64,000 bases of DNA from an uncultured Candidatus Saccharibacteria bacterium. Lineage in GTDB: Bacteria > Patescibacteriota > Minisyncoccia > Phycocordibacterales > JACOZG01. Positions 33,545 to 59,875 of the stretch are shown here, piece after piece. The position numbers and the translations under genes are program-made. Where the stretch lies: the NCBI GenBank assembly GCA_964460805.1, contig CAYWPU010000001.1, positions 38,624 through 102,623 of the forward strand. The letters run 5' to 3'. How positions within the stretch are numbered: position 1 is the first letter of the stretch; each line of letters opens with the position of its first letter. Under the pieces are notes generated by a model that was not told where the DNA came from, did not search any database, and saw only the letters and a list, made by a program, of their open reading frames with translations.

Positions 33545-34822
33545 CTAGAAGCTGCCACTGATGTCCAACGCCCAGAGTCTCTGGTCGTAGCGGTTATTGA
33601 TGTAGAGGGTCTTTTCCTCAGGGTCTAGCAGGAGCTTGTCGGCATCTAAGTTGATGTCTAGATTGCTGGTGGTGGGGCTAAAGATGATCTCATTCTGGTC
33701 GGTTACAGTATCTATTTTCCAGATATTATCGTTCAGTCTCACTTCTCCTCGGTACCAATCGTCCGGATAGCGGTAGCCGCTTGGCAGTCCGGCTGGCACC
33801 GCGCAATAGGCCGTCAGGCCCGCTCTGGACCACACGCACTTCTCCGTCCAAGTTCTCATGTTTAACCGGCTAAAGAACTTTTTGCTCCTGTCGTAGATGC
33901 CAAAGACCAGACCCTGCTCTCCCAGGCCGCTGTAGAGTACCCGATTGAGGTCGGGATTAACCAGAGTGCTTAAGCCGGGCACGCCAGTGATGACAGGTTC
34001 CAGCTCTTTGGACCTCAAGTCCCACAAGTAGAGCGAGCCATTGGCTAGTTCGGAACTGCGGCTCTGTAGGGCGATCACAGTAGGACTGACCCAGCTGGCT
34101 TGCCACTCTTGGTAAGGTGAGCGGAAGAGGGTTTGTTTGTTGCTACCATCAAGCTGGGCGAGATAAGCAACTGATTGATTGCCGCTCGGCTCTAGCCAGA
34201 AGACTTGGCTATGGTCTGGCGATACGGCCAGAGAGAGGATCTCCGCTGGCCAGGCTCGGGTGGCTAGGGTTGGCAAGTCAGACTCCGGCAGGCTGAGGAA
34301 GTCGTCTCCGGCTAAAGTGGGGCGGATATCCAGGCTGACGGCGATGGTCTGGAGACGGCCCTCGCGCAGGTGGCTGATGATCAGCTCGGTGCTGGTGCCG
34401 CTCTGGCCCGCGGCCAGGCTATAGACTTTTGGGATAGTAGTATTGGAGATGCGCTCGGCGGCGGCTCCTGGCTGGAGGCGGTAGAGATGGCCGGTAATCT
34501 TCTCGGCATAGATGAGAGCGCTGGAGGTGGCTTGGCCCACCAGTGCCAAGCCACCAATTGGCCGGGCTGAGACGCGGTAGAAGCGGCCGGTTGCATCGCT
34601 CACTGTTCCCTCTTCAGCCAACGGACTACTAGAGGCGGTATTGCTGGTAAAAATATCTCCGCCCGGCAGGAGCTCGCCACTCGGGAAGAGCTCGTTGCTC
34701 ACCACCGCTTGATCGCTTGGCACTTCTTCTTGCCCGCGCCACTTGGCCCATGCCAGCGCAATCATGATTATGATGATCAGCGCGCTGCCGGTGAGAATAA
34801 GAGTTTTAGTCTTTTTAGACAT
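33545..34822 (-). CDS. secreted/membrane-anchored protein of T4SS-like operon (N-terminal TM, large extracytoplasmic domain)
   Basis: MSKKTKTLILTGSALIIIIMIALAWA anchor. 425 aa with repeated hydrophobic/W-containing segments compatible with a beta-rich fold. Confidence 0.5.
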   Translation of the reverse strand: MSKKTKTLILTGSALIIIIMIALAWAKWRGQEEVPSDQAVVSNELFPSGELLPGGDIFTSNTASSSPLAEEGTVSDATGRFYRVSARPIGGLALVGQATSSALIYAEKITGHLYRLQPGAAAERISNTTIPKVYSLAAGQSGTSTELIISHLREGRLQTIAVSLDIRPTLAGDDFLSLPESDLPTLATRAWPAEILSLAVSPDHSQVFWLEPSGNQSVAYLAQLDGSNKQTLFRSPYQEWQASWVSPTVIALQSRSSELANGSLYLWDLRSKELEPVITGVPGLSTLVNPDLNRVLYSGLGEQGLVFGIYDRSKKFFSRLNMRTWTEKCVWSRAGLTAYCAVPAGLPSGYRYPDDWYRGEVRLNDNIWKIDTVTDQNEIIFSPTTSNLDINLDADKLLLDPEEKTLYINNRYDQRLWALDISGSF

Positions 34823-34828: not shown

Positions 34829-35203
34829 TTATTGACCCAGATTGCCCAGTGTACCCAGGGTGTTCACAATATCTGGGTTAATCTCGTTTAAGATTACCCA
34901 GGCGACCAGTGCGAGCAATAGACCCCAGAGCGCGCTCTTGATGCGCTCGGTGCCCTCACTCTTGCCGCCCGGCTTCATGCTCAGCACATGCTGCAGTCCG
35001 CCCCAAGTAACCATCACCACCGCCAGAGTGATTGCCACGCCCAGGAAGATGGGAAAGGCCACCTGCACATATTCACCAATAGAGCTGATCTCTGATCCGG
35101 CAGAGCCGGTGCCAGTATTGAGGGGCGCCAGGAGGTTAACTTGGTTCTGGGCCAGAGCCTTTTCTGTAAAAAAATTAAGTAGATTACTTAGCATGTTTTT
35201 CAA
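34829..35203 (-). CDS. VirB2/TrbC-like T4SS pilin candidate
   Basis: 124 aa. N-terminal leader, then two hydrophobic segments (VQVAFPIFLGVAITLAVVMVTWGGL and IKSALWGLLLALVAWVILNEI) separated by a short charged loop, the classic VirB2/TrbC architecture. By topology only. Confidence 0.45.
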   Translation of the reverse strand: MKNMLSNLLNFFTEKALAQNQVNLLAPLNTGTGSAGSEISSIGEYVQVAFPIFLGVAITLAVVMVTWGGLQHVLSMKPGGKSEGTERIKSALWGLLLALVAWVILNEINPDIVNTLGTLGNLGQ

Positions 35204-35931
35204 AAATTAAAGACGCCTGTGTTTCCAAAGTTGATCCGGAACTCGCGCTTGGCTGTCTGGAAGAGATTATTTAAGCTCTCTGTGGTGAGCTTGATGATAC
35301 TCTCACCGCTAATGCCACTGGGCGCGGCAAAGGTAATGAGGCGGTTATCTACTGGCGAGGGCACCACCTTCTGATCGTTCAGCGTCCAACGGTAATCAAT
35401 TTTGCCAGTCTGGACATCTACATTATTAAAGAAATAGGGCTCAGCCGCTAGGTTGATCTCTGGTTGAGTGAGCGTGAGACTGGTGCCCAGAGCGCGGTGG
35501 TAATTGATCCCCAGCAGTGGATCGTCCTCGTAGATGCTGATTACTGGATTGACCACTAGTATCTCCACCAGGCGGTTTGCTGATCCTGTTTTGCCGGGCG
35601 CGGTCACCAGCACTTGGACTTGATGCCTCTCCCTCGCTTGGCCAGCAGTGAAGCTGAGAGTACTCTGGCCAAGGCCCGAGGACTTGGGTACTGCTTGGCC
35701 GTCTCTCTGCCAGCGGTACTCAAGTTGCTCTGGACTCACACCCGGCCAGGCGGCTAGTGCCACCACGCGCACAGTGCTCTGGGGAGTGGCTTGGCTATGA
35801 CCCAAGTAGAAGGCTGGTTTGTACGTGCTAGCGCTCCAGAGCAGATCTACACTGGGAGCGCTCTGAGCCTGGGCGCCGGGCGCGGTGAGTATTAATGTAA
35901 AAAGAGTGAGGAGAGTGGTAAAAAATTTCAT
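35200..35931 (-). CDS. secreted protein of T4SS-like operon
   Basis: Signal peptide MKFFTTLLTLFTLILTAPGAQA. 243 aa, no recognisable motif. Confidence 0.45.
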   Translation of the reverse strand: MKFFTTLLTLFTLILTAPGAQAQSAPSVDLLWSASTYKPAFYLGHSQATPQSTVRVVALAAWPGVSPEQLEYRWQRDGQAVPKSSGLGQSTLSFTAGQARERHQVQVLVTAPGKTGSANRLVEILVVNPVISIYEDDPLLGINYHRALGTSLTLTQPEINLAAEPYFFNNVDVQTGKIDYRWTLNDQKVVPSPVDNRLITFAAPSGISGESIIKLTTESLNNLFQTAKREFRINFGNTGVFNF

Positions 35932-36251
35932 TTTACTAGAGGCAACTTAATACCCAGCTTGTCTTCTGATTTTACCATACCGATGATAACGATTACACCC
36001 ACAGTGACTGACGGTAAGACGCTGAGTATAGGAATGATTTCTACAAGAGCGCTCACGCCGGCTGTGGCCAGGCGCTTGATGGTAAAGGGACTCACTCCCA
36101 ATAGCAGTAACCAAATACCAATCACAATCCATCCCATTGCCCCCGCGCCGGGTATCAACAGACTTAAGAGATCAAAAAACAGAGCCACCACGGGCATGAA
36201 GATGATAGTGGCTAGGCCGATACGGTTTCTCTTTGGTTGTTCTTCACTCAT
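35928..36251 (-). CDS. small polytopic membrane protein of T4SS-like operon
   Basis: 107 aa, 2-3 TM. Overlaps both neighbours by 4-8 nt, suggesting translational coupling. Confidence 0.45.
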   Translation of the reverse strand: MSEEQPKRNRIGLATIIFMPVVALFFDLLSLLIPGAGAMGWIVIGIWLLLLGVSPFTIKRLATAGVSALVEIIPILSVLPSVTVGVIVIIGMVKSEDKLGIKLPLVK

Positions 36252-38073
36252 CTAGAGTTTCTTTGTCGCGCTTGGCTTGCTTGATCGCTAAGATTTGCGA
36301 GGGATCAGAGGTGATGATCTGATCTTCGGTATAAGAGGCGATAATCTTAATAGCCACGTGTTTGAGGCCGGCAAAGAAGATACCCTCGCCCACCCCAGAC
36401 TCTAGCAGGAGATATTTCTCGCCATCGGTGAGCTGGAAGGTTTGCTGGATCAGGTCAATGGCGGCAGGCGACTGCTTTAATAATAACTGGATAGAAGAGT
36501 TAGTGATAATTGGTGTGCCGTATTCTGACTTTAAGAAGTCGCCCACGTCTTGGGTGATAGTAGCCACGCCGAGATAATACTTTCTCCCGCGCTTCACAAG
36601 AGAGAACAAGAACGAGGCTGTATCTTTGCTCTTCATCATCCACCAGGCCTCGTCTATTACCAGCAGGCGCTTCTTCAAGTTGCGCCGGATGGCGTTCCAG
36701 ATATTGTGCATCACGATGTACATCGCCACGGGTTTGAGCTCGTCTTCCATATCGCGGACCGAGAAGACCACAAACTTTTTATTGATATCTACGTTAGTTG
36801 GCTTATTGATAAAACCAGCCCAAGTGCCGCGGGTGTACTTGAGCAATCTCTGTGCTAGCGCTTCCCCGCCGTCCATCCCTACCAGCACTAGTTCTAGATC
36901 AGAGAGGAGTGGCGCCGGTTTATTGGTGAAGTCAGAATCAGCTGTAATATCTTTAAGCGCATAGGTCTCAGTGATTGCGTTGTCCATGATCGCGTCTTCC
37001 TCCGGCGTTAAGCCGCCAAGCATCAGTCTAAACAAGCCAACGAGATTGATGATATTAGAGCGCAAGACGTCAGCCGGTGATTCATCTTCTCTCGGGAATG
37101 GCAGATCAAACGGATTAATGTGGTGCTCGGAGGTGAGTGAGATATTGAAGTAGCGTCCGCCTACGGCCTCTGACAAGAACTCATATTCTCGTTCCGGGTC
37201 TATAACTAAAACATCCGTATCAAACATCAAACTGCGCAGGATTTCTAATTTAGTCGCGTAACTCTTACCAGAACCAGATTTGGCAAAAGTGACAGAGTTA
37301 TAGTTCTCTAAGCTAAAGCGATCAAACAAGATCAGCGAAGAATTATGCCTATTTATTCCATACAAAATTCCCTTATTAGAAGTGAGGTCAAACGAGACGA
37401 ACGGGAAGAGTGAGGAAAGTGGCGAGGAGTTGAGTTTATAATTGATGCCGAGTTGGTCGTCGGCTGTGGGGATCACGCTGCGGAAGCCCTCAGCCTGCTG
37501 GAAGAGGGCTGGCTTGAGATAAACCAACTTAGCGTCCAAGATGCCCTTCACTTCTGTTTCGGTTTTGTTTAACTCATCTTCCGTGTCGCCATAGATGGTG
37601 ATATAGACGCCGACATCAAAGATCTTCTCTCGCGCTTGTTGCAGGCTGTCTCGGAGTGTTTCAATATCAGAATAAGCAGTGTCTAGCACTGGATCGCGGA
37701 CTAAGCCGCGGCTCTCTTTAATACTGATCTGACTCTGCACCTCTGCCACCTTTTTCTCCAATTGCCGGAGGGCGATGGAGGTGTCTATGGGGTGGATGAG
37801 GATAGAAATGTCAAAGACTTTGTCTAGGTTGATGAGCGGCGAGAACCAGTCACCTGATAAGAATCTGGGATAAGAGATTACGTAGAAAGTGCGCGCGACT
37901 TTATCGCCCAGGTTGAGCAGTCTGGGTGTGACGCGGAGTGCCGATGGCGCGAGGATATCGCGCAGGCTCAGGACGCCCATCTGGTAGATATCTTGCGGGA
38001 AGACAGGCGCAACCACTGGTGCTGTTTCTCCCCTTTTCTTCTCTCCCTCTTTAGTTTTACCTAAGCCGAACAT
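36244..38073 (-). CDS. VirB4/TrsE/TraE-family type IV secretion ATPase
   Basis: Walker A FAKSGSGKSYATK and Walker B LLVIDEAWWMM (the VIDEAW motif typical of VirB4/TraC) followed by ATITQD. N-terminal region resembles VirB4 N-domain. 609 aa, compact like Gram-positive VirB4 homologues. Confidence 0.8.
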   Translation of the reverse strand: MFGLGKTKEGEKKRGETAPVVAPVFPQDIYQMGVLSLRDILAPSALRVTPRLLNLGDKVARTFYVISYPRFLSGDWFSPLINLDKVFDISILIHPIDTSIALRQLEKKVAEVQSQISIKESRGLVRDPVLDTAYSDIETLRDSLQQAREKIFDVGVYITIYGDTEDELNKTETEVKGILDAKLVYLKPALFQQAEGFRSVIPTADDQLGINYKLNSSPLSSLFPFVSFDLTSNKGILYGINRHNSSLILFDRFSLENYNSVTFAKSGSGKSYATKLEILRSLMFDTDVLVIDPEREYEFLSEAVGGRYFNISLTSEHHINPFDLPFPREDESPADVLRSNIINLVGLFRLMLGGLTPEEDAIMDNAITETYALKDITADSDFTNKPAPLLSDLELVLVGMDGGEALAQRLLKYTRGTWAGFINKPTNVDINKKFVVFSVRDMEDELKPVAMYIVMHNIWNAIRRNLKKRLLVIDEAWWMMKSKDTASFLFSLVKRGRKYYLGVATITQDVGDFLKSEYGTPIITNSSIQLLLKQSPAAIDLIQQTFQLTDGEKYLLLESGVGEGIFFAGLKHVAIKIIASYTEDQIITSDPSQILAIKQAKRDKETLDE

Positions 38074-38088: not shown

Positions 38089-38739
38089 CTAATTTAAACT
38101 CGGAATATCGTTCTCGCCCGGGTTAAAAATTTTAAAGTATAACTCCACCAATTCTTCAGTCCCCAACTGTGCCACGCGCAAGCCGATGCGAGAGAAGCCT
38201 TGCTCCACCACTGCCGCGCGCTGCTCTAGCTGAGTGCGGTGTTCTTCAAATTCAGCAGATAGATCGCGTTTGGCGCTCTGGCTACCCAGGCCGGGCAGTT
38301 TAGAGAGCAGTCCGCCCTTGCCCTGTCCGAGTTGGACGGGAGGGCTATACGGGATCACAGCAAAGAAGCTCTTGGCCATGATATCAGTTGATTCTGTGAA
38401 CTTCCTGATGAAGTCAATATATTCTCTGGTCTGAATTTTAAGCAAATCATTAGTTTGGGCGACTAGGCGCTCTTCCAGAGTGTTGAGATACGGCCTGATG
38501 TCTAGTCTCCGTGACTGCACAAAGAGCTGGATGTGGAAGTCTAGCGAGTTTAGGAAGTTCTGGAACTGGAGCAAAATCGCCGTCTGCTCGTCTTCGCCCT
38601 TGAGCGCAAAGTTGACGGACGAGATCATTAGCACCATCCGCAGGGCGCCGTTCTTGAGCACCGCCACACCATCGCGGATCTCCTTGATGGGGAGGAAGTC
38701 TTGCGAGGCTTGGCCATTTGTCTGTGTCGCTGTCGCCAT
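38089..38739 (-). CDS. hypothetical T4SS-associated cytoplasmic protein
   Basis: 216 aa, no TM. Sits between the PrgI/VirB3-like gene and the VirB4-like gene. LPIKEIRDGVAVLKNGALRMVLMISSVNFALKGEDEQ is reminiscent of conjugation-ATPase N-terminal regions, unverified. Confidence 0.45.
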   Translation of the reverse strand: MATATQTNGQASQDFLPIKEIRDGVAVLKNGALRMVLMISSVNFALKGEDEQTAILLQFQNFLNSLDFHIQLFVQSRRLDIRPYLNTLEERLVAQTNDLLKIQTREYIDFIRKFTESTDIMAKSFFAVIPYSPPVQLGQGKGGLLSKLPGLGSQSAKRDLSAEFEEHRTQLEQRAAVVEQGFSRIGLRVAQLGTEELVELYFKIFNPGENDIPSLN

Positions 38740-38758: not shown

Positions 38759-39196
38759 TTATTTGATTTTTTCTCGGATATCCAAGCTCCAAGAGAGATC
38801 TTTTAGTTTGCTCTTCGAGAGTTTGGGCACTGTCAGCGCGCGTGGTTGATCAGCTGGTCTTGTTGCTGTTTGTCCACTATTTGTGCCAGTCCCTGTGCCA
38901 TTTGGATTTGCACCAGAGCGCTTCCAGATATAGAGCTTGTGGGTGGTGGCGTAACGGAAGGCCGCTTCTAGTATCAGGATAAACGAGCGGTTATTCACTT
39001 TATAGAACGCTAGCGCCAGGGCGAGTCCGAGTACGGGGATAATCAAGAGGACAGCCAGCCAGCGGTAAGGCAGGTAGACCCAGAACATGAAGCACGCTCC
39101 CGCCCCACCCACCACGTAGATAAACTGCTTAAAGGTGAGCGGACCAAATATTTTGTCTTCTATTTCAATAAATTGCGGGACTTGGAAGTTGAGCAT
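38759..39196 (-). CDS. PrgI/TcpE/VirB3-like small membrane protein
   Basis: QVPQFIEIEDKIFGPLTFKQFIYVVGGAGACFMFWVYLP followed by a second TM. Matches the PrgI-family pattern (PKDL...DKI.GPLT.RQ..YL) and the VirB3-before-VirB4 order. Confidence 0.55.
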   Translation of the reverse strand: MLNFQVPQFIEIEDKIFGPLTFKQFIYVVGGAGACFMFWVYLPYRWLAVLLIIPVLGLALALAFYKVNNRSFILILEAAFRYATTHKLYIWKRSGANPNGTGTGTNSGQTATRPADQPRALTVPKLSKSKLKDLSWSLDIREKIK

Positions 39197-39201: not shown

Positions 39202-39741
39202 TTATTCCAGCCTTTCCCGATAAGGATCCACGTGTGCTGGACGCTCCAGCTCGGCTGGCGTATCCGGCGTACCCATGATCCCCTCTTCTACCGGCTTAAG
39301 GTTCACCGGTTCTGATAATTTCCGTTCCATCACGTTTAGACTTGGCTCTGATGTTTTACCTGTCACAGTAGTAGGACTGTTCATTTCCCTCAGCAAGTCC
39401 TCCGGCGCGGGCGTATTCTGCCGTTCCTCCAGTTGCTTGAGCGATTCCCTGATCTTCATAAAGATTTCTTTGTTCACTTCCATCGCAATCTGCTCCGCCT
39501 CTGCCGCGCTAATACCCAACCGCTCTTGGATATTGGCGGTGAATTTAATAGATGGTTCTAGTCCAAGGATCACATAATCAATCTCGTCTACCAGGCCACC
39601 AACCTGGTCAATATGTAATTGATGAGCGCTACCAATACGCCTGATTACGGCGATAGTTTCGTCCGCGTACATAATTTTCCGGAGCAACTCTGGCGCCTCA
39701 TCGTATTTTTTATCTAGTATTTCTTGAGTGTAATTAGACAT
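39202..39741 (-). CDS. hypothetical soluble protein of T4SS-like operon
   Basis: 179 aa, acidic, no TM, no motif recognised. Confidence 0.4.
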   Translation of the reverse strand: MSNYTQEILDKKYDEAPELLRKIMYADETIAVIRRIGSAHQLHIDQVGGLVDEIDYVILGLEPSIKFTANIQERLGISAAEAEQIAMEVNKEIFMKIRESLKQLEERQNTPAPEDLLREMNSPTTVTGKTSEPSLNVMERKLSEPVNLKPVEEGIMGTPDTPAELERPAHVDPYRERLE

Positions 39742-39743: not shown

Positions 39744-42176
39744 TTAATTTCTTCCTTCGTGGTAGTTAATGTTGGCGTTTATGTTTTGAGGGTTAGTGTT
39801 GTTGCTTCTTGGTGATGGCCATTCGTAGCTTCTGTTTGACCCCGTTCCTGAGGGTGTCACGCTGGCCACTGTTGTGGTTTGAGTTGTTGTCGCTCCTACC
39901 GGACTTGCGGTAGCCGCTCCCGCCGCACGTCTCCTGATCTCTTGTAATCGATTGCGCTTGTTTATTTCCCCGGAATTCCGGAGTTGTTCCAGTCTTCCGG
40001 TTCCTAAGTTGCTTGCGATCGTCTGCAGGATGTTTTTGTAATCAGCGTCCTTGTCGTCCAGGTCGTTTACTAGTTTGGCAATTAGGGCCGTTGGTGTTTG
40101 CGCTAATGTTGTGCCCACAGCAGCGCTCTCTCCTCCAAGATTCGAGCGCAGTGTGTCTTCCAACTGACTCATCTTTTGTTCTCTCTGCGCTCTGATCGCT
40201 TCTTTCGTGGCATCGTCTATGTCGTTATCTTTTTCAATCGCCTTGACCTGATTTTCTGAGAAGAGGTGTGCCAGAGTCTTCAGTGTCGTGGCGTCTAACT
40301 TAACCACGTTTTTATCCTTCATCTTCTTGATGGCTTTCTCGGCCTCTGTTTCTTCCTGAGATCCCGGAGTCAGTTTATTGCCGTTGATCTGATTGGCGAT
40401 CTTCTGAGCGGTAGCTTTGGTCTTTTGTTTTTCGTTGTCTTCTTTTTCTTCCTGTGTTTTCTTTTTATCTTTCACCTCGCCCAGTATTTCTACACCAGTA
40501 ATACTAGATACGGCCTTATTAAACGCCTCGTCTGGCTTCTTAAAGGTATCAGCGATTTTCCCTTTAATATTGCCGCCGCTGGATGTAATAACAGATGCTG
40601 CCTTTGTAGCTCCGGCGGCGGCACCCACAAATGGGCTGGTTGCTACCTTCCGTAATCCAACGCCCACATCTCGCACACCCCTCCAGCCACCGCTTTGTAC
40701 CCCCTTGTACACCTCTTTAAATCCTCCGTACGCCGACTTAGCGGTTCCCCCCACTAAACCACCAGTAGCACCCCCAATGGTTTTGAGTGCGAATCGATTA
40801 ATGCCTCCTGCCGCCTTCGTCGCCATCGCCGCTCCCGCTACGCCCAGTTCTTTAGCCACCATCAGCGAGCCAAGCATGAGGCCGTTGGCGATGAGGTAAG
40901 CGAGTAATAGGTTGAAAAACTTATCATTACCCGTATTGATATTACTATTCACCACCTGGGTCACCTTAATGCTCATAAAGATGAAGAGCATGAAGGCGGG
41001 TGCAAATATTAGTTGATTTGAGAGTGCATCTTTCCATTTATTGCTGATCTTGTCTAATGCTTTTGCTCCCACCGCAAAGGCGAGGAAAGCTACGGGAGAG
41101 GCCGCGAGCACAAAGACGAGTATCAATGCTCTGATAAGGAAGAGGATTGCTCCGGCCATGAAGACGGTAGTAGCAATAATAATCAAGATGATCTGCCCCA
41201 CCAGAGAGGCGGCCTGGCTCTTGAGGCGGTTGATATTGGCGTCTGCAGAAGTGAGTGGCATGCGGTCCCTCAGTTGAGCGGCTATCCCCTTGTTCACTGC
41301 GCTATCACTATTTGTGGGGTCTATGGGGCCGGACATCAGCGCTTTCACAATATCTGGACGACCTCCTTCGCCTGCCGCTTGGCCACTTTGTGTTTGACCC
41401 GCTTTGATATACAAACCATTTGCCACCACGTTGCTGGCGTCTATCATTATGCTAGTGAAGAAGAAGCTGAAGTTGACCAGGAGAGCGGCGATTATGACGT
41501 TCTTAAGCAGGTTTTTGCCCTTGACCCCATTAAGCTGGAGTATGGTGCCGATGGCAATGTAGAGCAAAGTGAAGATGAAGGTGAGATTCACCAAGTCGCG
41601 GAAGACTCGCCACGCCTCTCGTAAGCCAACACCCACCTTGTCTCTAAAGTTGCGGACCGAGAAGTCAATACTCAGATCCAGCAGGTAATTAGCCGCTTCC
41701 AAGAGCCATTTCACCACCCAGTGGAAGGCCGTGAGTACACCCACAGCGAACTTCCAGCCGTAACACTCAATATCTAAATATCCGCAAGAGACTGGGCCTT
41801 TCTGGTTCTCCAGTATTTGTCTGTACTCATTATCCGATAGTACACCCTGGTCACCGTGGTTGAGAGTTTGGTTTCCGGTGTCTTGGACTGGCGTACCGCC
41901 GGGTCTGGCAGCTAGCGCCCGATTAATTAGGTTGATGTCTGCTTGGATACTGTTTTGTGTGTCTCCACCGGAGTAGTTGCCACTGTCTCGGTATGCTTGG
42001 AGTTGCCTAACGGCACTCTGTAAGTCTTCTGTGCTAATGCTCCAGCCAGATCCTACAGGATTATTCAGTGCTTCAATCCTGTTCTCATACTGCACGCCGT
42101 TAATTGTAATCGCCCACGCTTGTCCGGCGCTGAGGAGCAGGAGGAGTATTACTAAGATGTGAGCCAGGCGCTTCAT
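39744..42176 (-). CDS. VirB6/TrbL-like polytopic membrane protein with N-terminal secreted domain and long C-terminal hydrophilic extension
   Basis: Signal peptide MKRLAHILVILLLLLSAGQAWA. At least 6 TM helices in the central ~350 aa (e.g. LVGQIILIIIATTVFMAGAILFLIRALILVFVLAASPVAFLAF). C-terminal ~330 aa is lysine/glutamate-rich with coiled-coil character. 810 aa. Confidence 0.55.
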   Translation of the reverse strand: MKRLAHILVILLLLLSAGQAWAITINGVQYENRIEALNNPVGSGWSISTEDLQSAVRQLQAYRDSGNYSGGDTQNSIQADINLINRALAARPGGTPVQDTGNQTLNHGDQGVLSDNEYRQILENQKGPVSCGYLDIECYGWKFAVGVLTAFHWVVKWLLEAANYLLDLSIDFSVRNFRDKVGVGLREAWRVFRDLVNLTFIFTLLYIAIGTILQLNGVKGKNLLKNVIIAALLVNFSFFFTSIMIDASNVVANGLYIKAGQTQSGQAAGEGGRPDIVKALMSGPIDPTNSDSAVNKGIAAQLRDRMPLTSADANINRLKSQAASLVGQIILIIIATTVFMAGAILFLIRALILVFVLAASPVAFLAFAVGAKALDKISNKWKDALSNQLIFAPAFMLFIFMSIKVTQVVNSNINTGNDKFFNLLLAYLIANGLMLGSLMVAKELGVAGAAMATKAAGGINRFALKTIGGATGGLVGGTAKSAYGGFKEVYKGVQSGGWRGVRDVGVGLRKVATSPFVGAAAGATKAASVITSSGGNIKGKIADTFKKPDEAFNKAVSSITGVEILGEVKDKKKTQEEKEDNEKQKTKATAQKIANQINGNKLTPGSQEETEAEKAIKKMKDKNVVKLDATTLKTLAHLFSENQVKAIEKDNDIDDATKEAIRAQREQKMSQLEDTLRSNLGGESAAVGTTLAQTPTALIAKLVNDLDDKDADYKNILQTIASNLGTGRLEQLRNSGEINKRNRLQEIRRRAAGAATASPVGATTTQTTTVASVTPSGTGSNRSYEWPSPRSNNTNPQNINANINYHEGRN

Positions 42177-42201: not shown

Positions 42202-45200
42202 CTAGTTCTGGTTGAGGACAGCGTTGATAATGGCCACGATGATGGCTTGCAGGAGCTCGTTAAACTGACCGGTCTGTAGGGCGCTGGCACCAGGTGTATT
42301 GCTGAGTGCGTTGCGCACCGTGTCTTGGAAGCGCAAACTCCCGCCGTTGCTAAAGTCGGAACGGTAGAAGCCGCCGCTATTGAAGCCGCTGGTTAGCTGA
42401 TTCTCAAACTGGTTGATAGACATGCTGGCTTGGTTAAACAAGTTGCCTACCCCAGTTTCCAGTCCATCAGCCAGACCATTTTCAAAAATTCCTCCAATTG
42501 TCAGGGGCGCATTATTATAGCCATAGAGACTATTGCCGCTGAGCCAGTTATTGCCGTACTGGAAGAGCTGTTCCAGGTACTGATCCTCGCCATAGCCATC
42601 GGTGCTGAGGGCGGCATTAATCGCCAAGGTGCTATAGGCTGTGTCTTTAGCCCTCGCCAGGTCGCCTGGTTCCGTTACCACCCACCAGCCATCACAGATC
42701 TGGTGGCCTTGATAAGTAACTAGTCGTCCTTTACACTCACGTTTGGAGTTGCGGCCGTAGACAGCAAATTCTTTTTCCTCCTGTGCTTGGCGGGCGGCGC
42801 TGGCTCTAGTGGCAGAGTCCCAGATTAATATCTGTGCCTCCAGTGGCAGATCATCGATATAGTTGCCACTATCGCCTCCAGTACCAACGGTGCCATTCGC
42901 AGCCCTGACCAGCTCTTGTTGTATCCTGGTTGTGTTAACGCCGGTAACATTTTGCAAGTGATAGGCCGTGAGCAGGTATCCTTCTCGAGCGGCATCTGCT
43001 AAGTTTTGTTGCAGGTTAGTAGTTACTCCCTGTTCCTCCCCCGTACGGCTGGTGGCTCCAGTTTGGCGGCTGGCGATGCCGTATTCTGCCGCTTTATTGG
43101 TCAGTGTTTGCAGACTATTGCCACGAGCGGTGGGGTTGAGGTGCATCAGCACTCGCTGTGTTGCCCGCGCGGCCCGGGCGTTTTTCTTATTCTGCATGCA
43201 GTCGCGGAAGATTCGGTCTAACTCTATTTGTTGCTGTTTCAGCGCTTCTGTATTCTGTTTATTGTTTGTGGTGCCAAGGCCCTGCAGTTTGGCGTAGCCC
43301 TTTGAGGCTATCTTGGCTTGCGCTTTGCCCGTGTTGGCCACAGTACCGGCAATGCTTGTCCTCGCTGGTATATCCTCCACCCACCAAGCCTCTAGATCTG
43401 ACCCCGGGACCACTCCCAATAGGTGACTGAGAGTGAGCTCTACTACTTGCTCCGCTACCGGGGACAAGAGACCTCCCACATAAGGGATGCCATCTACAAT
43501 GCTGCCAATTCCGCCAGAAATACCACTGACCAGGGCGCCTTGCAAGTCGCCGGCAATCTGGTTGCCTAGATTGCCCAGTCCAGCACCCAGAGTCCCTGTC
43601 TTGCCGGCGGCATTATTGGCGATATTATCGGCTCCGGCACTCACCGATCCAGCAGCATCGGCACCGATGCTATCTGCTGGAGCGATCGGGCCTGGGTACT
43701 CACCCACTGCAATATCGCCCGAACTCACAAATGCATCGTAGCTAGGCAGTGCTGGTGGTCCGGCTACGCCAGGGGCTAGGTCACTGACCTGTCCAGAATT
43801 TAAACCACTCAATGTGCCGCTACTCAGTGGCACGTCGTAGCCGTGACTATTTAACGCAGCCATATAGTTGGCACCGGCCGGACTCAGGTCGGCCGCCAGT
43901 CTAATCGTTTCAATACTCGGCATGCCGCCGCCGTAGCCGATGGTTGCTAGGTTTGTGATCGCCCTGTCGTAGCCAGAGAAGCCCACGCCGGATACCAGCG
44001 CCGTGGCAATGGGTTGGGATAGTTCGTTGGCTAGGGGTTTAAAGTCAAAACCGGCCGCAGCTAGGATGTCATTCCCAGCCCAGTCGTTAAAATTGAAGCC
44101 GCTTCCTCCAGTGCCAGTATTGCTGGCAATTTGATTAAAGTTTAGTCCGTTTAATTGACCCAGGACTCCTCCATTGCCTCCTGGAGCGCCACCCATCACC
44201 ATCTGCATGATCACCGGCAGCATCTGGTCTACCAAGCGATCTATGCCACCGCTCTTACTCACGCCGCGCGCGGCCTCGTTGGCGATGCCATTACCTACTT
44301 GCGAGACCAGCCCAGTTAGGAGTAGCTCCAACTGTTGTTGGAGCAGTTGCATTGACTGCTGGATCTGTTGGGTCATTGTCTGGGCTAAGCTTTGTCCAAC
44401 TTGTTGGAAGGTTGTTGGTTCTCCAGAGAGGGCTCCCTCTAGATGTTGTTGTAGCACCTGCTGGACGACCGGGATAATATTAGCCGGATTAAACTGCTCC
44501 ATTAATTGACTGCCGGGCCCAAAGCTGGCCAGGAGATGCTGTTGGAACATCGCGTCGTTCTGGAGTATGGGAGAGTGCCACTCCGTCTCTGGCAGGCGGT
44601 TGCCGTTCTCGTCCGTTGTCGTCCAGAGCAGCTTCTGGATTTCCAAGTCCATATTATTACGGAGGTTGCCTTGGAGGCCGTTTCTTAGTCCACCGGGCAG
44701 GTCTTGGCGGATGATCTGAGGTAGGATCTGGGCGATTACCTGCCGGAAGTCGTCTGCGCTAGGCTGTCCGCCGGTGCGCCCACTAGAGCGCATGTGCCGA
44801 TCCAGCGCCGAGGGCAACTGGTTCCTGAGGCCGCGCTCTATCACCTGTGGCAACACTTGGCCGATCTGCCGCTGGACCAGGCCCTCCAGGTTGCGGCTGA
44901 CCACTCGGTTGATAGCTTCAGAGAGATTCCGCTGTATCCCACGGCTTATCACATTCTGCAGGCTGGAGGCCAATCCGGCGCCAGCCACTTGTTCTTTACA
45001 CTCGCGCGTGTCTTGGTCAATCTCCTGCCACTCTCGCTGGAGGGCGTCAGCTGTCTGTGCGCTAAAGGCATCAACTCCAAGAGAAGTCTCGTTGGCAAAA
45101 GGTTCTTGAGTCGTATCTATCACTTGCGCCAGCACGAGGTGAGGCAAGAGCAAGCTCAAGGTGAGCAGGCTGGCGGTGATTTTTTTATAATATTCTTGCT

Positions 45201-45207
45201 GTCTCAT
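42202..45207 (-). CDS. giant secreted low-complexity protein (1001 aa; Gly/Gln/Asn/Leu-rich)
   Basis: Signal peptide MRQQEYYKKITASLLTLSLLLPHLVLAQ. Internal degenerate repeats of the form LRNxLP / LPQ[VI]I[ER] (RNLEGLVQRQIGQVLPQVIERGLRNQLP; VIAQILPQIIRQDLPGGLRNGLQGNLRN). Long G/N/S/A-rich tracts, almost no Cys. Overlaps its upstream neighbour by 4 nt. Confidence 0.6.
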   Translation of the reverse strand: MRQQEYYKKITASLLTLSLLLPHLVLAQVIDTTQEPFANETSLGVDAFSAQTADALQREWQEIDQDTRECKEQVAGAGLASSLQNVISRGIQRNLSEAINRVVSRNLEGLVQRQIGQVLPQVIERGLRNQLPSALDRHMRSSGRTGGQPSADDFRQVIAQILPQIIRQDLPGGLRNGLQGNLRNNMDLEIQKLLWTTTDENGNRLPETEWHSPILQNDAMFQQHLLASFGPGSQLMEQFNPANIIPVVQQVLQQHLEGALSGEPTTFQQVGQSLAQTMTQQIQQSMQLLQQQLELLLTGLVSQVGNGIANEAARGVSKSGGIDRLVDQMLPVIMQMVMGGAPGGNGGVLGQLNGLNFNQIASNTGTGGSGFNFNDWAGNDILAAAGFDFKPLANELSQPIATALVSGVGFSGYDRAITNLATIGYGGGMPSIETIRLAADLSPAGANYMAALNSHGYDVPLSSGTLSGLNSGQVSDLAPGVAGPPALPSYDAFVSSGDIAVGEYPGPIAPADSIGADAAGSVSAGADNIANNAAGKTGTLGAGLGNLGNQIAGDLQGALVSGISGGIGSIVDGIPYVGGLLSPVAEQVVELTLSHLLGVVPGSDLEAWWVEDIPARTSIAGTVANTGKAQAKIASKGYAKLQGLGTTNNKQNTEALKQQQIELDRIFRDCMQNKKNARAARATQRVLMHLNPTARGNSLQTLTNKAAEYGIASRQTGATSRTGEEQGVTTNLQQNLADAAREGYLLTAYHLQNVTGVNTTRIQQELVRAANGTVGTGGDSGNYIDDLPLEAQILIWDSATRASAARQAQEEKEFAVYGRNSKRECKGRLVTYQGHQICDGWWVVTEPGDLARAKDTAYSTLAINAALSTDGYGEDQYLEQLFQYGNNWLSGNSLYGYNNAPLTIGGIFENGLADGLETGVGNLFNQASMSINQFENQLTSGFNSGGFYRSDFSNGGSLRFQDTVRNALSNTPGASALQTGQFNELLQAIIVAIINAVLNQN

Positions 45208-45902
45208 GGTTTTGCCAGATATCTATCCAGCGCGCTGATGGCTAGTAGTAGTCTGTAATATTGGTCTTGATACAGCTCAGCACTCTCGCTGGCCAATAAT
45301 GGTTCCGTGTTCGCCTGACTCATATTATAGATTACTTGATCCAAGCTAGCCATGCTGTTTAAGAGTTGTAGGTGGAAAAAGGTAGCTGAGGCAGGCGTGG
45401 GTGTGGCCACGAGGGCGTCTATTGTTGTCTGGATGTGTTGGTGAGACTGGCGTAGCTTGTCTAATTCCGCTGTTTTGCCTGTTTGGAAATAATTAAGCAT
45501 TGCCGTCCGCTCGTCTCCTGTCAGGCCAGCACTGTATTTGGTTAGGATCGTTTGTATGGCTTTGCTGTATGAGGCTTTTGTTACGCTTCCATCTCCGCTC
45601 GTAACCTTGATATCACCATAGGTGTAAGTGGTTTTACGTAGTTGTGTGTGAGCTAGTGTTTGTAGTGGTGCTCCCGATTTATTTTCAATTGCCTGTGTGG
45701 CTATCGCTAACGTGGTGGTGGAGACGGCGGCAATGGCGCGTTCGGCATCTTGTTGCGCCAGACGCTCGGCTTCCACCGCCTCTTGCCGCACTCGTTCGGC
45801 CTCTTGCTCTCTCTGCTCCAGCGCGCGGTTGCCCAGCCACCAGAGAACCGCGCTGCTGAGGATCAGCAACGGAATTAGGATCAATAAAATCTTCCGGATC
45901 AC
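45204..45902 (-). CDS. membrane-anchored coiled-coil protein, first gene of T4SS-like operon
   Basis: N-terminal TM ILLILIPLLILSSAVLWWL, then EQREQEAERVRQEAVEAERLAQQDAERA coiled-coil. 232 aa. Bitopic architecture is compatible with a VirB8/VirB10-type scaffold, unproven. Confidence 0.45.
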   Translation of the reverse strand: MIRKILLILIPLLILSSAVLWWLGNRALEQREQEAERVRQEAVEAERLAQQDAERAIAAVSTTTLAIATQAIENKSGAPLQTLAHTQLRKTTYTYGDIKVTSGDGSVTKASYSKAIQTILTKYSAGLTGDERTAMLNYFQTGKTAELDKLRQSHQHIQTTIDALVATPTPASATFFHLQLLNSMASLDQVIYNMSQANTEPLLASESAELYQDQYYRLLLAISALDRYLAKP

Positions 45903-45909
45903 GCTTTAA

Positions 45910-46338
45910 TTATAAAGCCTTATCGCCTATTTCCCAACCGAGTTTTGCACTTTTGCCGGCGTTCAGTTCCAGTACGTATCTAATTGGCTCTGCTGGTGAG
46001 AAAGTTCGCGGATAAGTTTCTGGCGCAATATTTTTTTCTATGCCAATGATCTTAAAGTTCTCGTCCAGCCAGACTATATCTATAGGGAAGCGCATCTCTT
46101 TCATCCAGAACTGAGGCACCACATCTTCTTGGTAAACAAATAACATCCCGGCGTCTTCATCTAAGCTCTCACGATAAGATAGCCCCAGCTCTTGCTCGGC
46201 TGGCGTTACAGCATATTCTAGTTTTAATTTGCTCAGTTCGGGCAAGTTTCTATCCTGCTTTACGGCAGACCAAGCTGCTACTGCCACCAGCGCCACACTG
46301 AGAGCGATTAAAACTATTTGCTTGCTAGGCATAGCCAA
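45910..46338 (-). CDS. DUF192-family protein (COG1430-like)
   Basis: MLFVYQEDVVPQFWMKEMRFPIDIVWLDENFKIIGIEKNIAPE matches the DUF192 signature. N-terminal signal/TM. Confidence 0.65.
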   Translation of the reverse strand: MAMPSKQIVLIALSVALVAVAAWSAVKQDRNLPELSKLKLEYAVTPAEQELGLSYRESLDEDAGMLFVYQEDVVPQFWMKEMRFPIDIVWLDENFKIIGIEKNIAPETYPRTFSPAEPIRYVLELNAGKSAKLGWEIGDKAL

Positions 46339-49279: not shown

Positions 49280-50227
49280 TTGCTTGGTTCAGCTCTGGTC
49301 GCTATCCCAGCGCTCTTGATTAACCGCCACTCGGCTCTGGCTGGTTCTCTGGGGTCTAATTCCCAGAACATTGGCCTTTCCAGCTCAGCCCCGCTCATTT
49401 TAGCTCTCTCTGGCTCGGATACCGGCGGCGGCGATATCACCATCAGCCGGGATGCGCTCTTGCCAGAGAGCGGCGTGCTCGGCACCTCGGCAGATATTGT
49501 AGAGATACCCCAGAGCGACCAGATCAGCCTCTACGTGGTCCGCGCGGGCGATACGCTCTCGGGCATCGCTGAGATGTACGACGTCTCGGTCAATACCATT
49601 GTGTGGGCTAACGATCTGGCTCGCGGTGCGGCGCTTAGGGAGGGACAGGAGCTCACTATCTTGCCAATCAACGGCTTGCGGCATACGGTGCAGAAGGGTG
49701 AGACACTCGCGAGCATTGCTAAGAAGTTTGGCGGGGACGAGAAGGAGATACTGCAATTTAACGATCTTGGTGCTGAGACTAGACTAGCTGTGGGTCAGGT
49801 GATTATGATCCCTGGCGGTGAGTTGCCGGTGACTAAGACTCCCAGCAAGACGCCGGTCAAGGGCGCGAGCGGTCCCACCTATGCTGGTTACTATATCCGG
49901 CCGATCAATGGTGGAGTGAAGACGCAAGGCTTGCACGGCTATAACGCCGTGGACTTGGCCAGCCGCGTGGGTACACCGGTGCTGGCATCCGCCGCTGGCC
50001 GTGTGATCGTGAGCCGCCAGGGTGGCTGGAACGGTGGTTACGGCAACTACGTGGTAATAGAGCACGGCAACGGCACGCAGACGCTCTATGCTCACCTCAA
50101 CGACACTATTGTGAGCACGGGTACGCGCGTGGAGCAGGGCGAGGTCATTGGCCACTTGGGCAATACCGGCCGCTCTACCGGCCCACACCTCCACTTTGAG
50201 ATCCGTGGTGCCAAGAATCCGTTTTAG
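49280..50227 (+). CDS. LysM-domain M23 family peptidoglycan endopeptidase
   Basis: Two LysM repeats (YVVRAGDTLSGIAEMYDVSVNTIVWAN; HTVQKGETLASIAKKFGGDEKEILQFN). M23 motifs HGYNAVDLA and GHLGNTGRSTGPHLHFEIR. Apparent TTG start at 49280. Confidence 0.8.
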   Translation: MLGSALVAIPALLINRHSALAGSLGSNSQNIGLSSSAPLILALSGSDTGGGDITISRDALLPESGVLGTSADIVEIPQSDQISLYVVRAGDTLSGIAEMYDVSVNTIVWANDLARGAALREGQELTILPINGLRHTVQKGETLASIAKKFGGDEKEILQFNDLGAETRLAVGQVIMIPGGELPVTKTPSKTPVKGASGPTYAGYYIRPINGGVKTQGLHGYNAVDLASRVGTPVLASAAGRVIVSRQGGWNGGYGNYVVIEHGNGTQTLYAHLNDTIVSTGTRVEQGEVIGHLGNTGRSTGPHLHFEIRGAKNPF

Positions 50228-59075: not shown

Positions 59076-59094
59076 AAGAGGGAAACTTAATCTG

Positions 59095-59165
59095 TGCGGG
59101 TAGGGAGAATCGAACTCCCGCCTCGTCCTTGGCAAGGACGTGTTTTACCACTAAACTACACCCGC
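59095..59165 (-). tRNA. tRNA-Gly (GCC)
   Basis: GCGGGTGTAGTTTAGTGGTAAAAC start, anticodon stem CGTCC/GGACG with loop TTGCCAA, T-arm GGGAG-TTCGATT-CTCCC, A73. Confidence 0.85.
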
Positions 59166-59204
59166 AACTGTTCCATGTTATCATAAAATGTTGGAGTTTC
59201 AAGA

Positions 59205-59277
59205 GCTCTCGTGGTGAAATGGATATCACAACGGTCTTCGGAACCGTCGTTGGGGGTTCGAGTCCCTCCGAGAGCAC
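59205..59277 (+). tRNA. tRNA-Arg (TCG)
   Basis: Acceptor GCTCTCG/CGAGAGC (same as the Arg-GCG tRNA), D-arm GTGA-AATGGATA-TCAC, anticodon stem ACGGT/ACCGT with loop CTTCGGA, T-arm GGGGG-TTCGAGT-CCCTC, A73. Confidence 0.8.
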
Positions 59278-59352
59278 TGGTGGTTAGTCCCAGGCTGGTA
59301 AGTCTTTAAAGTCTCAGAAGACTAGCTAATTAGAGCCATAAAATAGCCAACT

Positions 59353-59817: not shown

Positions 59818-59821
59818 AAAA

Positions 59822-59850: not shown

Positions 59851-59875
59851 TAGTTTTTCCATTGGTGCGCGCAAG

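What the first reader, a model, noticed from the sequence alone, without database searches (positions are those of the whole stretch)
42202..45207. 1001-aa secreted low-complexity giant protein embedded in the T4SS-like operon
The protein has a signal peptide, then about 1 kb of Gly/Gln/Asn/Ala/Leu-rich sequence with degenerate LRNxLP / LPQ[VI]I[ER] repeats and long G/N/S tracts, and almost no Cys. It is translationally coupled (4-nt overlap) to the upstream coiled-coil gene and lies directly upstream of the VirB6-like gene. The composition suggests an extended, flexible surface fibre, adhesin, pilus-tip or substrate protein. Nothing like it is recognisable by motif.
Basis: seen in the sequence. 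Interest (0 to 1): 0.75.

Follow-up and report, generated by a model that had tools for sequence, protein, structure and literature searches.

The report
Secreted helical partner of CPR T4SS
This is a real, conserved gene for a 1,001-residue exported protein, predicted to be mostly alpha-helical, that always sits next to the channel (VirB6-like) gene of the type IV secretion system in one group of ultra-small Patescibacteria. It has no relative of known function and is probably an outer part of that machine, not a floppy low-complexity fibre.

Summary
The ORF is real: minus strand, 45207..42202, 1001 aa. It has a Sec-type signal peptide and overlaps the upstream gene by 4 nt (ATGA). It lies 25 nt upstream of an 810-aa polytopic gene whose orthologues match Pfam TrbL/VirB6.

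It is rich in Gly, Gln and Asn but is not low-complexity. The longest G/N/S run is 5 residues. There are three LPxxI motif copies and no tandem array. With a 40-sequence alignment, AlphaFold2 gives a mostly ordered all-alpha model (pLDDT 71).

An exhaustive HMM search found 68 relatives. Most are 950-1300 aa and nearly all have a signal peptide. Three Cys are invariant and one is near-invariant, and a hydrophobic Gly-rich motif (G-I-P-Y-V-G-G-L-L) is conserved.

In all eight flanked loci the gene sits in the same place in a Patescibacteria T4SS operon next to dnaA, down to about 15% identity. The order is bitopic protein, this gene, VirB6-like, PrgI, TrsD, VirB4, pilin.

Best reading: an uncharacterised extracytoplasmic core subunit that works with VirB6. 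A stalk, tip or host-contact role like VirB5 is inferred, but VirB5 membership is not supported.

The parts
42202..45207 (-). Target gene: a 1001-aa exported, predicted all-alpha protein. It founds an uncharacterised T4SS-linked family.
   Evidence: ORF and translation. 68 relatives in an exhaustive HMM search. AF2 model with pLDDT 71. Conserved synteny.
45127..45207 (-). Signal peptide, aa 1-27 (MRQQEYYKK - ITASLLTLSLLLPHLVLA | Q).
   Evidence: Kyte-Doolittle peak at 12-30. 85% of 40 family members have a hydrophobic peak here. An 'A-Q' junction recurs across the family.
44173..44979 (-). N-terminal helical module, aa 77-345, with the three LPxxI motif copies. The preceding C70 motif 'RECKEQ' lies at aa 68-73.
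   Evidence: Motif copies at aa 119, 162 and 330. Long helices H77-141, H151-194 and H265-317 with pLDDT 80-90. C70 is near-invariant.
43576..44172 (-). Gly/Asn/Ala/Ser-rich middle region, aa 346-544, with short helices. The motif FNFNDWAGNDILAAAGFD is conserved in the close subfamily.
   Evidence: Alignment A1. Composition by 100-aa windows. AF2 secondary structure.
43372..43575 (-). Conserved, moderately hydrophobic Gly-rich segment, aa 545-612. It holds the invariant G-[IV]-P-Y-V-G-G-L-L-x-P-x-A-E. A '[GI][IV]PVxD' motif follows in the family and is degenerate here (WWVED).
   Evidence: Invariant columns 573-586. Family alignment. Family-mean hydropathy peak at 555-610.
42205..43371 (-). 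Family core, aa 613-1001: a 100-residue helix carrying C670, further helices, a beta-hairpin at 822-846 carrying C825 and C838, and a C-terminal amphipathic helix.
   Evidence: This is the best-conserved part in distant relatives (profile 490-1000). Invariant Cys. AF2 elements. Motifs.
45204..45902 (-). Upstream 232-aa bitopic protein: N-terminal TM, a charged helix, then a roughly 170-aa domain. It is translationally coupled to the target.
   Evidence: Translation. TM segment 5-23. ATGA overlap. The orthologue sits in the same position in all loci. No Pfam or PDB match.
39744..42176 (-). 810-aa VirB6/TrbL-like polytopic membrane protein.
   Evidence: Signal peptide plus about 5 TM segments. 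Three of 8 orthologues hit Pfam TrbL PF04610, best E 6.5e-5. Precomputed TrbL_3 hits.
39202..39741 (-). 179-aa protein of unknown role. A gene of 168-278 aa holds this position in the related loci.
38759..39196 (-). PrgI (VirB3-like) protein.
   Evidence: Pfam PF12666, E 4.3e-9.
38089..38739 (-). TrsD/TraC-like protein, resembling the N-terminal part of VirB4.
   Evidence: NCBIfam TrsD and VirB4 N-terminal hits. Orthologues carry PF26593 TraC-like.
36244..38073 (-). VirB4 ATPase of the CD1110 / MPF_FATA type.
   Evidence: NCBIfam NF045971, 353.7 bits against a cutoff of 325. Pfam P-loop_TraG.
34829..35203 (-). VirB2-like T4SS pilin.
   Evidence: Pfam PF18895, E 7e-7, 29.7 bits against a cutoff of 26.6.
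49280..50227 (+). LysM + M23 peptidase. It is a candidate cell-wall remodelling (VirB1-like role) enzyme and is conserved beside the operon.
   Evidence: Pfam hits. Present in 6 of the 8 flanked related loci; the L002 contig ends before that position.

Best explanation
The gene encodes an uncharacterised, Sec-exported, disulfide-stabilised, mostly alpha-helical structural subunit of the chromosomal MPF_FATA-like type IV secretion system of a Patescibacteria (Parcubacteria/Paceibacteria-type) lineage.

Shown:
- It is a conserved family with a signal peptide, invariant Cys and a conserved hydrophobic Gly-rich segment.
- It is always encoded between a small bitopic membrane protein and the VirB6/TrbL-like channel protein, and usually overlaps both genes.
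- The operon also carries PrgI, TrsD, VirB4 and a VirB2-like pilin.

Inferred:
- After export it assembles outside the membrane on or next to the VirB6-like oligomer.
- There it forms the stalk or cap of the channel or pilus. This is the position VirB5 holds on VirB6 in Gram-negative systems.
- Its long helices span the wall, and the hydrophobic Gly-rich hairpin and large N-terminal module contact the host cell envelope.

It works like a (giant) VirB5-type partner of VirB6 but is not a demonstrable VirB5 family member.
For: (1) Strict synteny. All 8 loci with flanks keep the order bitopic ~230-285 aa, this family, VirB6-like, ~170-280 aa, PrgI, TrsD, VirB4, down to about 15% identity. The partial locus L005 agrees.
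(2) Translational coupling. The window has an ATGA overlap with the upstream gene, and the same 4-nt overlap is kept in 5 related loci. The target overlaps the VirB6-like gene by 1-23 nt in 5 loci.
(3) Export signal in nearly all of the 68 relatives.
(4) Invariant C670, C825 and C838 and near-invariant C70, as expected for extracytoplasmic disulfides.
(5) The AF2 model is ordered and all-alpha, with a 100-residue helix.
(6) Even conservation along the whole length in close relatives, and no length variation between strains. This argues for a machine part, not a variable adhesin.
(7) The system has a VirB2-like pilin and a VirB6/TrbL-like protein. In MPF_T systems the Sec-exported helical VirB5 is encoded next to VirB6 (R388 annotation).
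(8) Literature. Patescibacteria T4SSs lack known adhesins and VirB8/VirB1 are rarely found (PMC12102498). No VirB5-like protein is known in Gram-positive-type T4SSs that build a pilus on VirB6 (bioRxiv 10.64898/2025.12.18.695078).
Against: - No sequence, profile or fold match to any T4SS component: Pfam, NCBIfam, PHROGs and PDB sequences; hhalign against 7 VirB5 sequences gives probability at most 4.4%.
- The protein is 4-5 times larger than VirB5.
- The AF2 model has pTM of only 0.43, so the domain arrangement is unreliable.
- Conserved operon position does not distinguish a structural subunit from a dedicated conserved substrate.
- There are no expression, localisation or interaction data.
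Confidence: 0.5

Rival explanations
1. It is a dedicated secreted substrate or translocon. It is exported by Sec and/or the T4SS and inserts its Gly-rich hydrophobic hairpin into the host membrane to form a pore. Function would resemble T3SS translocators or ejected phage tape-measure proteins.
For: - A conserved, moderately hydrophobic Gly-rich segment of about 50 residues; 25% of members reach Kyte-Doolittle 1.4 or more.
- An all-alpha, long-helix architecture.
- The best hits in the viral structure library are tape-measure proteins, though they are not significant (E 0.06-0.5).
- The system lacks a relaxase and is thought to export proteins or serve the epibiotic lifestyle (PMC12102498, PMC10633639).
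Against: - The hydrophobic segment is below TM strength in most members.
- No PHROG or Pfam tape-measure match.
- A Sec signal peptide is unusual for a substrate that passes through the T4SS from the cytoplasm.
- A strictly fixed operon position with overlapping genes is more typical of machine subunits.
Confidence: 0.2
2. It is a free-standing surface adhesin or fibre, a functional analogue of PrgB/TraO, that mediates attachment to the host and is not part of the channel.
For: - It is exported, large and encoded in the T4SS operon.
- No PrgB-type adhesin has been found in Patescibacteria T4SS loci (PMC12102498).
- The large module at aa 80-610 is absent from short family members, as expected for an add-on interaction module.
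Against: - No LPXTG or other wall-anchor motif.
- No adhesin, Ig or lectin domain.
- Not repetitive.
- Conserved evenly, not hypervariable.
- Predicted to be helical bundles, not a beta-rich stalk.
Confidence: 0.15
3. It is a non-enzymatic wall-spanning scaffold or length ruler for the pilus or channel. It would stand in for the missing VirB8/VirB10-type scaffolds or act like a tape measure.
For: - Very long helices; 100 residues is about 15 nm.
- VirB8 and VirB1 are rarely detectable in Patescibacteria (PMC12102498).
- Weak structural resemblance to tape-measure proteins.
Against: - No homology to VirB8 or VirB10.
- Family length varies from about 400 to 1300 aa, and no data were collected on whether pilus or channel length varies with it.
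- The resemblance is not statistically significant.
Confidence: 0.1
4. It is a spurious, decaying or intrinsically disordered low-complexity ORF without a specific function.
For: Biased composition, and a low-confidence AF2 model when only 6 sequences were used.
Against: - 68 relatives with conserved motifs and invariant Cys.
- Full-length conservation at 32-46% identity.
- Intact copies in all contigs long enough to judge.
- The short hit that was checked is a contig-end fragment.
- pLDDT rises to 71 with 40 sequences.
Confidence: 0.02

Closest known systems
VirB5 / TraC / TrwJ / TrbJ (Pfam PF07996): the pilus-tip and stalk subunit of Gram-negative MPF_T T4SSs.
   Same: - Has a Sec signal peptide.
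- Essentially all-alpha and elongated.
- Encoded next to VirB6/TrbL.
- Belongs to a T4SS that also encodes a VirB2-like pilin.
- The family has a '[GI][IV]PVx[DE]' motif after a hydrophobic segment and before a long helix. This resembles the VirB5 signal peptide plus mature N-terminus 'GIPVFD'.
   Different: - 1001 aa against about 230 aa.
- No Pfam match.
- hhalign probability is at most 4.4% over 53 columns.
- It has four conserved Cys, a roughly 530-aa inserted module and a Gly-rich hydrophobic hairpin.
- The system is of the monoderm (MPF_FATA-like) type.
The Patescibacteria T4SS as described in Saccharimonadia (Southlakia epibionticum SEML1_0006-0019) and surveyed across the phylum (PMC10633639, PMC12102498).
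   Same: - Same kind of chromosomal, origin-proximal, relaxase-less T4SS with PrgI, TrsD, VirB4, VirB6-like and VirB2-like pilins.
- The Southlakia cluster also holds approximately 1000-aa proteins, two of which are essential: SEML1_0007 and SEML1_0011 are essential at every time point, and SEML1_0013 is scored non-essential at the first time point and essential afterwards.
   Different: - The Southlakia large proteins are annotated as VirB6/TrbL-like (0011, 0013) or carry a C-terminal peptidase domain (0007).
- None is described as a soluble exported all-helical protein.
- Gene order differs.
- This family was not described in either paper.
Gram-positive T4SS surface proteins and hydrolases: PrgB/PrgC/TraO adhesins and PrgK/TraG/CwlT VirB1-like hydrolases.
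   Same: They are large, exported and encoded inside MPF_FATA operons.
   Different: - No LPXTG motif.
- No adhesin or Ig domains.
- No lytic transglycosylase, CHAP, NlpC/P60 or M23 domain.
- A separate LysM-M23 peptidase is encoded nearby.
Phage tail tape-measure proteins.
   Same: - About 1000 aa and almost entirely helical, with Gly-rich hydrophobic stretches.
- They are the top-ranked hits in the viral structure library.
   Different: - The hits are not significant (E at least 0.06, TM-score about 0.1).
- No PHROG or Pfam tape-measure match.
- This protein has a Sec signal peptide and conserved Cys, and it lies in a cellular T4SS operon.
IcmX, the Sec-exported partner of polytopic DotA in the Dot/Icm T4BSS protochannel (abstract of PMC12501162, as listed).
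   Same: The logic is the same: an exported soluble partner paired with a large polytopic channel protein at the centre of a T4SS.
   Different: Not tested here. No sequence family match was seen in the Pfam scans.

Membership tests
VirB5/TraC/TrbJ family (PF07996) | Detectable sequence or profile homology to VirB5 proteins. | tested here: not met
   No Pfam hit for the protein or for any of 40 relatives. hhalign of the family against TrwJ gives probability 0.9%. Against an alignment of 7 VirB5 sequences it gives probability 4.4%, P 0.009, over only 53 columns.
VirB5/TraC/TrbJ family (PF07996) | A roughly 220-250 aa three-helix bundle with a small globular appendage. | tested here: not met
VirB5/TraC/TrbJ family (PF07996) | A Sec signal peptide, a gene next to VirB6, and co-occurrence with a VirB2 pilin. 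| tested here: met
   Signal peptide. Adjacency to the VirB6/TrbL-like gene in all loci. Pilin PF18895. R388 reference order.
VirB5/TraC/TrbJ family (PF07996) | Location on the VirB6 pentamer or at the pilus tip. | not testable with these tools
   This needs multimer modelling, cryo-EM/ET or immunolabelling.
Patescibacteria MPF_FATA-like T4SS locus (system membership) | A VirB4 of the monoderm type with TrsD, PrgI/VirB3, VirB6-like and a VirB2-like pilin, chromosomal near dnaA, with no relaxase nearby. | tested here: met
   VirB4 CD1110 family, 353.7 bits. TrsD. PrgI. TrbL/VirB6 in orthologues. Pilin. dnaA, dnaN and yidC lie 2-15 kb away. The context matches PMC12102498. The ORFs examined across 29-59 kb gave no relaxase family hit.
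Gram-positive T4SS adhesins (PrgB/TraO type) | An LPXTG sortase anchor plus adhesin or Ig-like domains. | tested here: not met
   No LPx[TSA]G motif. No adhesin domains. The model is predicted all-alpha.
VirB1-like T4SS cell-wall hydrolases (PrgK/TraG/CwlT) | A lytic transglycosylase, CHAP, NlpC/P60 or M23 catalytic domain. | tested here: not met
   No such domain in the protein or in 40 relatives.
Phage tape-measure proteins | A match to tape-measure protein families, or a significant structural match. | tested here: not met
   PHROGs gives no hit for the target and one weak hit (E 0.006) in 1 of 6 members. BFVD Foldseek E is at least 0.064 with TM-score about 0.1.
Intrinsically disordered / low-complexity repeat protein | Low sequence entropy, tandem repeats, poor conservation, no predicted fold. 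| tested here: not met
   The low-entropy fraction is 19%, within the range of neighbouring genes, and the longest G/N/S run is 5 residues. Self-BLAST finds no internal repeat. Motifs are conserved. pLDDT is 71 with 613 residues at or above 70.

The most novel reading that the evidence does not exclude
The family is the long-sought VirB5-equivalent of monoderm-type T4SSs. In this reading it is a helical cap that sits on the VirB6 pentamer and rides the VirB2-like pilus. In the long forms it is fused to a roughly 530-residue host-interaction module, and its conserved Gly-rich hydrophobic hairpin inserts into the host cell membrane. The tip would then double as a translocon through which these metabolically dependent ultra-small bacteria exchange material with their hosts.
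Probability: 0.15. Interest if true: 0.8.

Novelty: new variant of a known kind. Interest (0 to 1): 0.55.

Why it matters
Patescibacteria make up a large share of bacterial diversity and depend on host cells. In the one genetically tractable species their T4SS is essential for epibiotic growth (PMC10633639). What the machine touches or transports is unknown. No adhesin, tip protein or substrate has been identified (PMC12102498).

A conserved, exported, 1000-residue protein hard-wired to the VirB6-like gene is a concrete candidate for the extracellular, host-facing part of the machine in one major lineage. It gives a defined target for multimer modelling, cryo-ET, proteomics and genetics.

It also bears on a wider question: whether monoderm-type T4SSs, which now appear to build VirB2-like pili on VirB6, have a tip or cap subunit at all.

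Tried and rejected
- Pfam, NCBIfam and PHROGs on the protein and its relatives gave no consistent family. DUF445 hits in 4 of 40 members and single scattered hits were treated as helical or compositional noise.
- A PDB sequence-profile search found only designed helical repeat proteins, E about 1e-3.
- tblastn against 72,556 plasmids found no match.
- AF2 with 6 sequences was unusable (pLDDT 39.5). The rerun with 40 sequences was usable.
- The word-indexed homologue search returned the same 6 proteins even with profiles. Only the exhaustive HMM search reached distant relatives.
- The genome-contig scan found only one locus, which was already held. The scan with the 40-sequence alignment failed for lack of conserved stretches.
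- VirB5 homology by hhalign was not supported.
- The upstream 232-aa family and the VirB6-like family gave no PDB sequence match.
- The promoter and terminator scan of 33.0-50.5 kb was not above shuffled expectation.
- The decaying or split gene idea is rejected.
- The beta-solenoid or fibre idea is rejected: the predicted secondary structure is almost all helix.
Full report
**Observation**

The window holds a 1001-codon ORF at 42202-45207, and it is on the minus strand. It starts with ATG at 45207. That start overlaps the TGA stop of the upstream 232-aa gene by 4 nt (ATGA). The ORF ends 25 nt before the start of an 810-aa gene.

The N-terminus is MRQQEYYKK followed by ITASLLTLSLLLPHLVLA|Q. 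This is a typical Sec/SPase-I signal and the only strongly hydrophobic segment in the protein.

Composition is biased relative to 22 other genes of the window: G 11.7 vs 6.2%, Q 8.6 vs 4.1%, N 7.0 vs 4.6%, K 2.0 vs 6.4%.
- The longest G/N/S run is 5 residues.
- The low-entropy fraction is 19%, within the 0-21% range of neighbouring genes.
- Cys content equals background.
- The 'repeats' are three copies of an LPxxI motif at aa 119, 162 and 330, and self-BLAST finds no internal repeat.

**Organism and locus**

The region is chromosomal, with dnaN, dnaA, yidC, ksgA and pcrA around it.

The operon downstream of the target encodes:
- a PrgI/VirB3-like protein;
- a TrsD-like protein;
- a VirB4 of the CD1110/monoderm type, 353.7 bits against a cutoff of 325;
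- a VirB2-like pilin, PF18895.

Three of eight orthologues of the 810-aa neighbour hit Pfam TrbL/VirB6, best E 6.5e-5.

Homologues come from Patescibacteria MAGs, including a Candidatus Vogelbacteria genome.

The layout matches the published description of the Patescibacteria T4SS. That system is MPF_FATA-like, lies near dnaA with ksgA and rnpA nearby, usually lacks a relaxase and carries VirB2-like pilins. No PrgB-type adhesin has been found in it, and VirB8/VirB1 are rarely detected (PMC12102498). In Southlakia epibionticum the system is essential for epibiotic growth (PMC10633639).

**The family**

The word-indexed search found only six proteins. One is identical. Five share 32-39% identity over 94-98% of the length and are 1012-1037 aa long.

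An exhaustive HMM search of 1.84 billion cluster representatives found 68 relatives (45 with E at or below 1e-10). Most are 950-1300 aa. The C-terminal half is the best conserved part.

In a 40-sequence alignment C670, C825 and C838 are invariant, and C70, G818 and G896 are nearly so. Conserved motifs are:
- 'R..D...C.AE' around C70;
- LP-containing helices;
- a Gly-rich hydrophobic stretch ending in G-[IV]-P-[YF]-V-G-G-L-L-x-P;
- 'G-x-P-V-x-D';
- 'C-T-x-x-K...R-I-Q...E-E-K-E-F-x-x-D-P-x-A-R-K-A-A' around C670;
- 'A-G-Q-G-F...R-E-C...C-x-x-W-x-T-x-T-P-G' around C825 and C838.

Nearly all members have an N-terminal signal-like segment, often ending in A-Q. The family-mean hydropathy has a second, moderate peak at aa 555-610.

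Short members of 400-750 aa go directly from the C70 motif, through a Gly run and '[YF]VPVHE.G.LL', to the C670 motif. Relative to these short forms, aa ~80-610 of the window protein is a large inserted module. C70 and C670 are therefore probably close in space. That closeness is an inference.

**Is the gene intact and constrained?**

- A strain variant is 999/1001 identical with no length change.
- All close relatives on adequate contigs are full length.
- The 333-aa hit P0010 lies on a 1.1-kb contig and is a fragment.
- In the six-sequence alignment of the closest relatives, per-50-aa column agreement with the query (the query itself counted) is 0.27-0.64 along the whole protein. The N-terminal half is not more variable than the core.

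**Synteny**

All eight loci with flanks keep the same order, including members at about 15-22% identity. The order is: PcrA, KsgA, DUF192 (in 7 of the 8), a bitopic protein of about 230-285 aa, this family, a VirB6-like protein of 686-847 aa, a protein of about 170-280 aa, PrgI, TrsD/TraC-like, VirB4. In the loci that reach further the order continues: pilin, YidC, (RnpA), DnaA.

The 4-nt overlap with the upstream gene recurs in five related loci. In five loci the target overlaps the VirB6-like gene by 1-23 nt. The window holds no paralogue.

This pattern fits a core, stoichiometrically co-produced component.

**Structure**

AF2 with six sequences failed (pLDDT 39.5). With 40 sequences it gave pLDDT 71.1 and pTM 0.43, with 613 residues at or above 70.

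The model is almost all alpha-helix. The main helices are H77-141, H151-194, H265-317, a 100-residue helix H617-716, H789-817 and H904-945. There is a single beta-hairpin at 822-846 that carries C825 and C838.

The low-confidence parts are 540-566, 599-649, 775-783 and 892-919.

This contradicts the idea of a disordered fibre or a beta-solenoid.

**Comparison with known proteins**

None of these searches gave a meaningful match:
- Pfam, NCBIfam and PHROGs;
- the PDB sequence profile search, which found only designed helical repeats;
- tblastn against plasmids;
- Foldseek against the PDB, best E 0.94;
- BFVD, where the top hits are phage tape-measure proteins at E 0.06-0.5 and TM-score about 0.1, which is not significant.

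I tested the VirB5 idea directly. hhalign of the family against R388 TrwJ gave probability 0.9%. Against an alignment of seven VirB5 proteins fetched from plasmids it gave probability 4.4% and P 0.009 over 53 columns.

The aligned stretch is suggestive but weak. The family's hydrophobic segment, '[GI][IV]PVxD' and the start of the long helix line up with the VirB5 signal peptide, the mature N-terminus 'GIPVFD' and the first helix. This is a lead and does not establish membership.

**Mechanism**

Shown: this is an exported, conserved, Cys-bearing, predicted all-helical protein, genetically welded to the VirB6-like gene of a pilin-bearing, monoderm-type T4SS.

Inferred: it assembles outside the membrane with the VirB6-like oligomer, and probably with the co-translated 232-aa bitopic protein. 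There it would act as a stalk, cap or host-contact subunit.

This matches a recurring T4SS arrangement in which a polytopic channel protein pairs with a Sec-exported helical partner. Examples are VirB6-VirB5 (adjacent in R388) and DotA-IcmX in the Dot/Icm system (abstract of PMC12501162, as listed).

A recent preprint shows that Gram-positive T4SSs build VirB2-like pili on VirB6, and its authors could not find any VirB5-like tip (bioRxiv 10.64898/2025.12.18.695078). The role is therefore open.

The rival readings cannot be excluded with these tools. They are a secreted translocon or substrate, a free-standing adhesin, and a wall-spanning scaffold or ruler. I rank them lower because of the fixed, overlapping gene arrangement, the even conservation, the sub-TM hydrophobicity of the hairpin, and the lack of anchor or adhesin domains.

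**Novelty and verdict**

The system is known. This component is not described in the two papers that analysed Patescibacteria T4SS loci, and its relatives are annotated only as hypothetical proteins.

I rate it a new variant of a known kind: an unrecognised core or accessory subunit family of the Patescibacteria T4SS.

Interest is moderate at 0.55. The gene is a concrete candidate for the host-facing part of a machine that is essential in these organisms. Its role rests on context and a medium-confidence model only.

Noticed in passing
window 38089-38739 (-) and 36244-38073 (-): VirB4 appears as two genes: a 216-aa TrsD/TraC-like N-terminal piece and a 609-aa ATPase. The same two-gene arrangement is kept in all related loci, so it is the native TrsD + VirB4 layout and not a frameshift.
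   Followed up: partly
window 34829-35203 (-): A 124-aa protein matches Pfam T4SS_pilin (PF18895, E 7e-7). This monoderm-type T4SS therefore carries a VirB2-like pilin. The neighbouring 107-aa gene (35928-36251, -) reads as a very hydrophobic small protein, judged by eye from the translation (the 19-residue Kyte-Doolittle scan was not run on it), with no family match.
   Followed up: partly
window 49280-50227 (+): A LysM + Peptidase_M23 gene lies on the opposite strand next to pcrA. It is conserved beside the T4SS operon in 6 of the 8 flanked related loci (the L002 contig ends before that position). It is a candidate stand-in for the missing VirB1-type wall hydrolase.
   Followed up: partly
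window 45204-45902 (-): The upstream 232-aa gene encodes an N-terminal TM segment, a charged helix (REQEAERVRQEAVEAERLAQQDAERA) and a domain of about 170 aa. This topology is typical of VirB8-like/PrgL-type bitopic T4SS proteins.
   Followed up: partly
window 45909-45937 (-): A promoter-like site (TTGGGA-17-TATAAT, 10/12) has its -10 box ending 7 nt before the GTG start of the 232-aa gene. This would imply a near-leaderless T4SS transcript. Site counts in the region are not above the shuffled expectation.
   Followed up: no
L007 2362-4731 and L010 3353-5638: Some related genomes carry a gene of about 760-790 aa between the LysM-M23 gene and pcrA, with DUF8128 and weak TrwB/VirD4-type hits (a possible coupling protein). 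The window has no gene at that position.
   Followed up: no
window 33545-34822 (-) and 35200-35931 (-): Two more conserved operon members lack any family match: a 425-aa protein with an N-terminal TM anchor and a 243-aa protein with a signal peptide. Both keep their positions in related loci.
   Followed up: no
window 55795-56673 (+); 57552-59135 (-); tRNAs at 59095-61919: There is a XerC/D-type tyrosine recombinase, a CCA-adding enzyme ORF whose listed TTG start overlaps a tRNA (59095-59165, -), and a cluster of 7 tRNA genes. The ORF's true start is probably further downstream.
   Followed up: no
family members P0012-P0021 etc. (alignment A2): Four of 40 family members give Pfam DUF445 hits (best E 1.1e-7). 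The region that matches was not determined, so whether this is real or compositional is unresolved.
   Followed up: no
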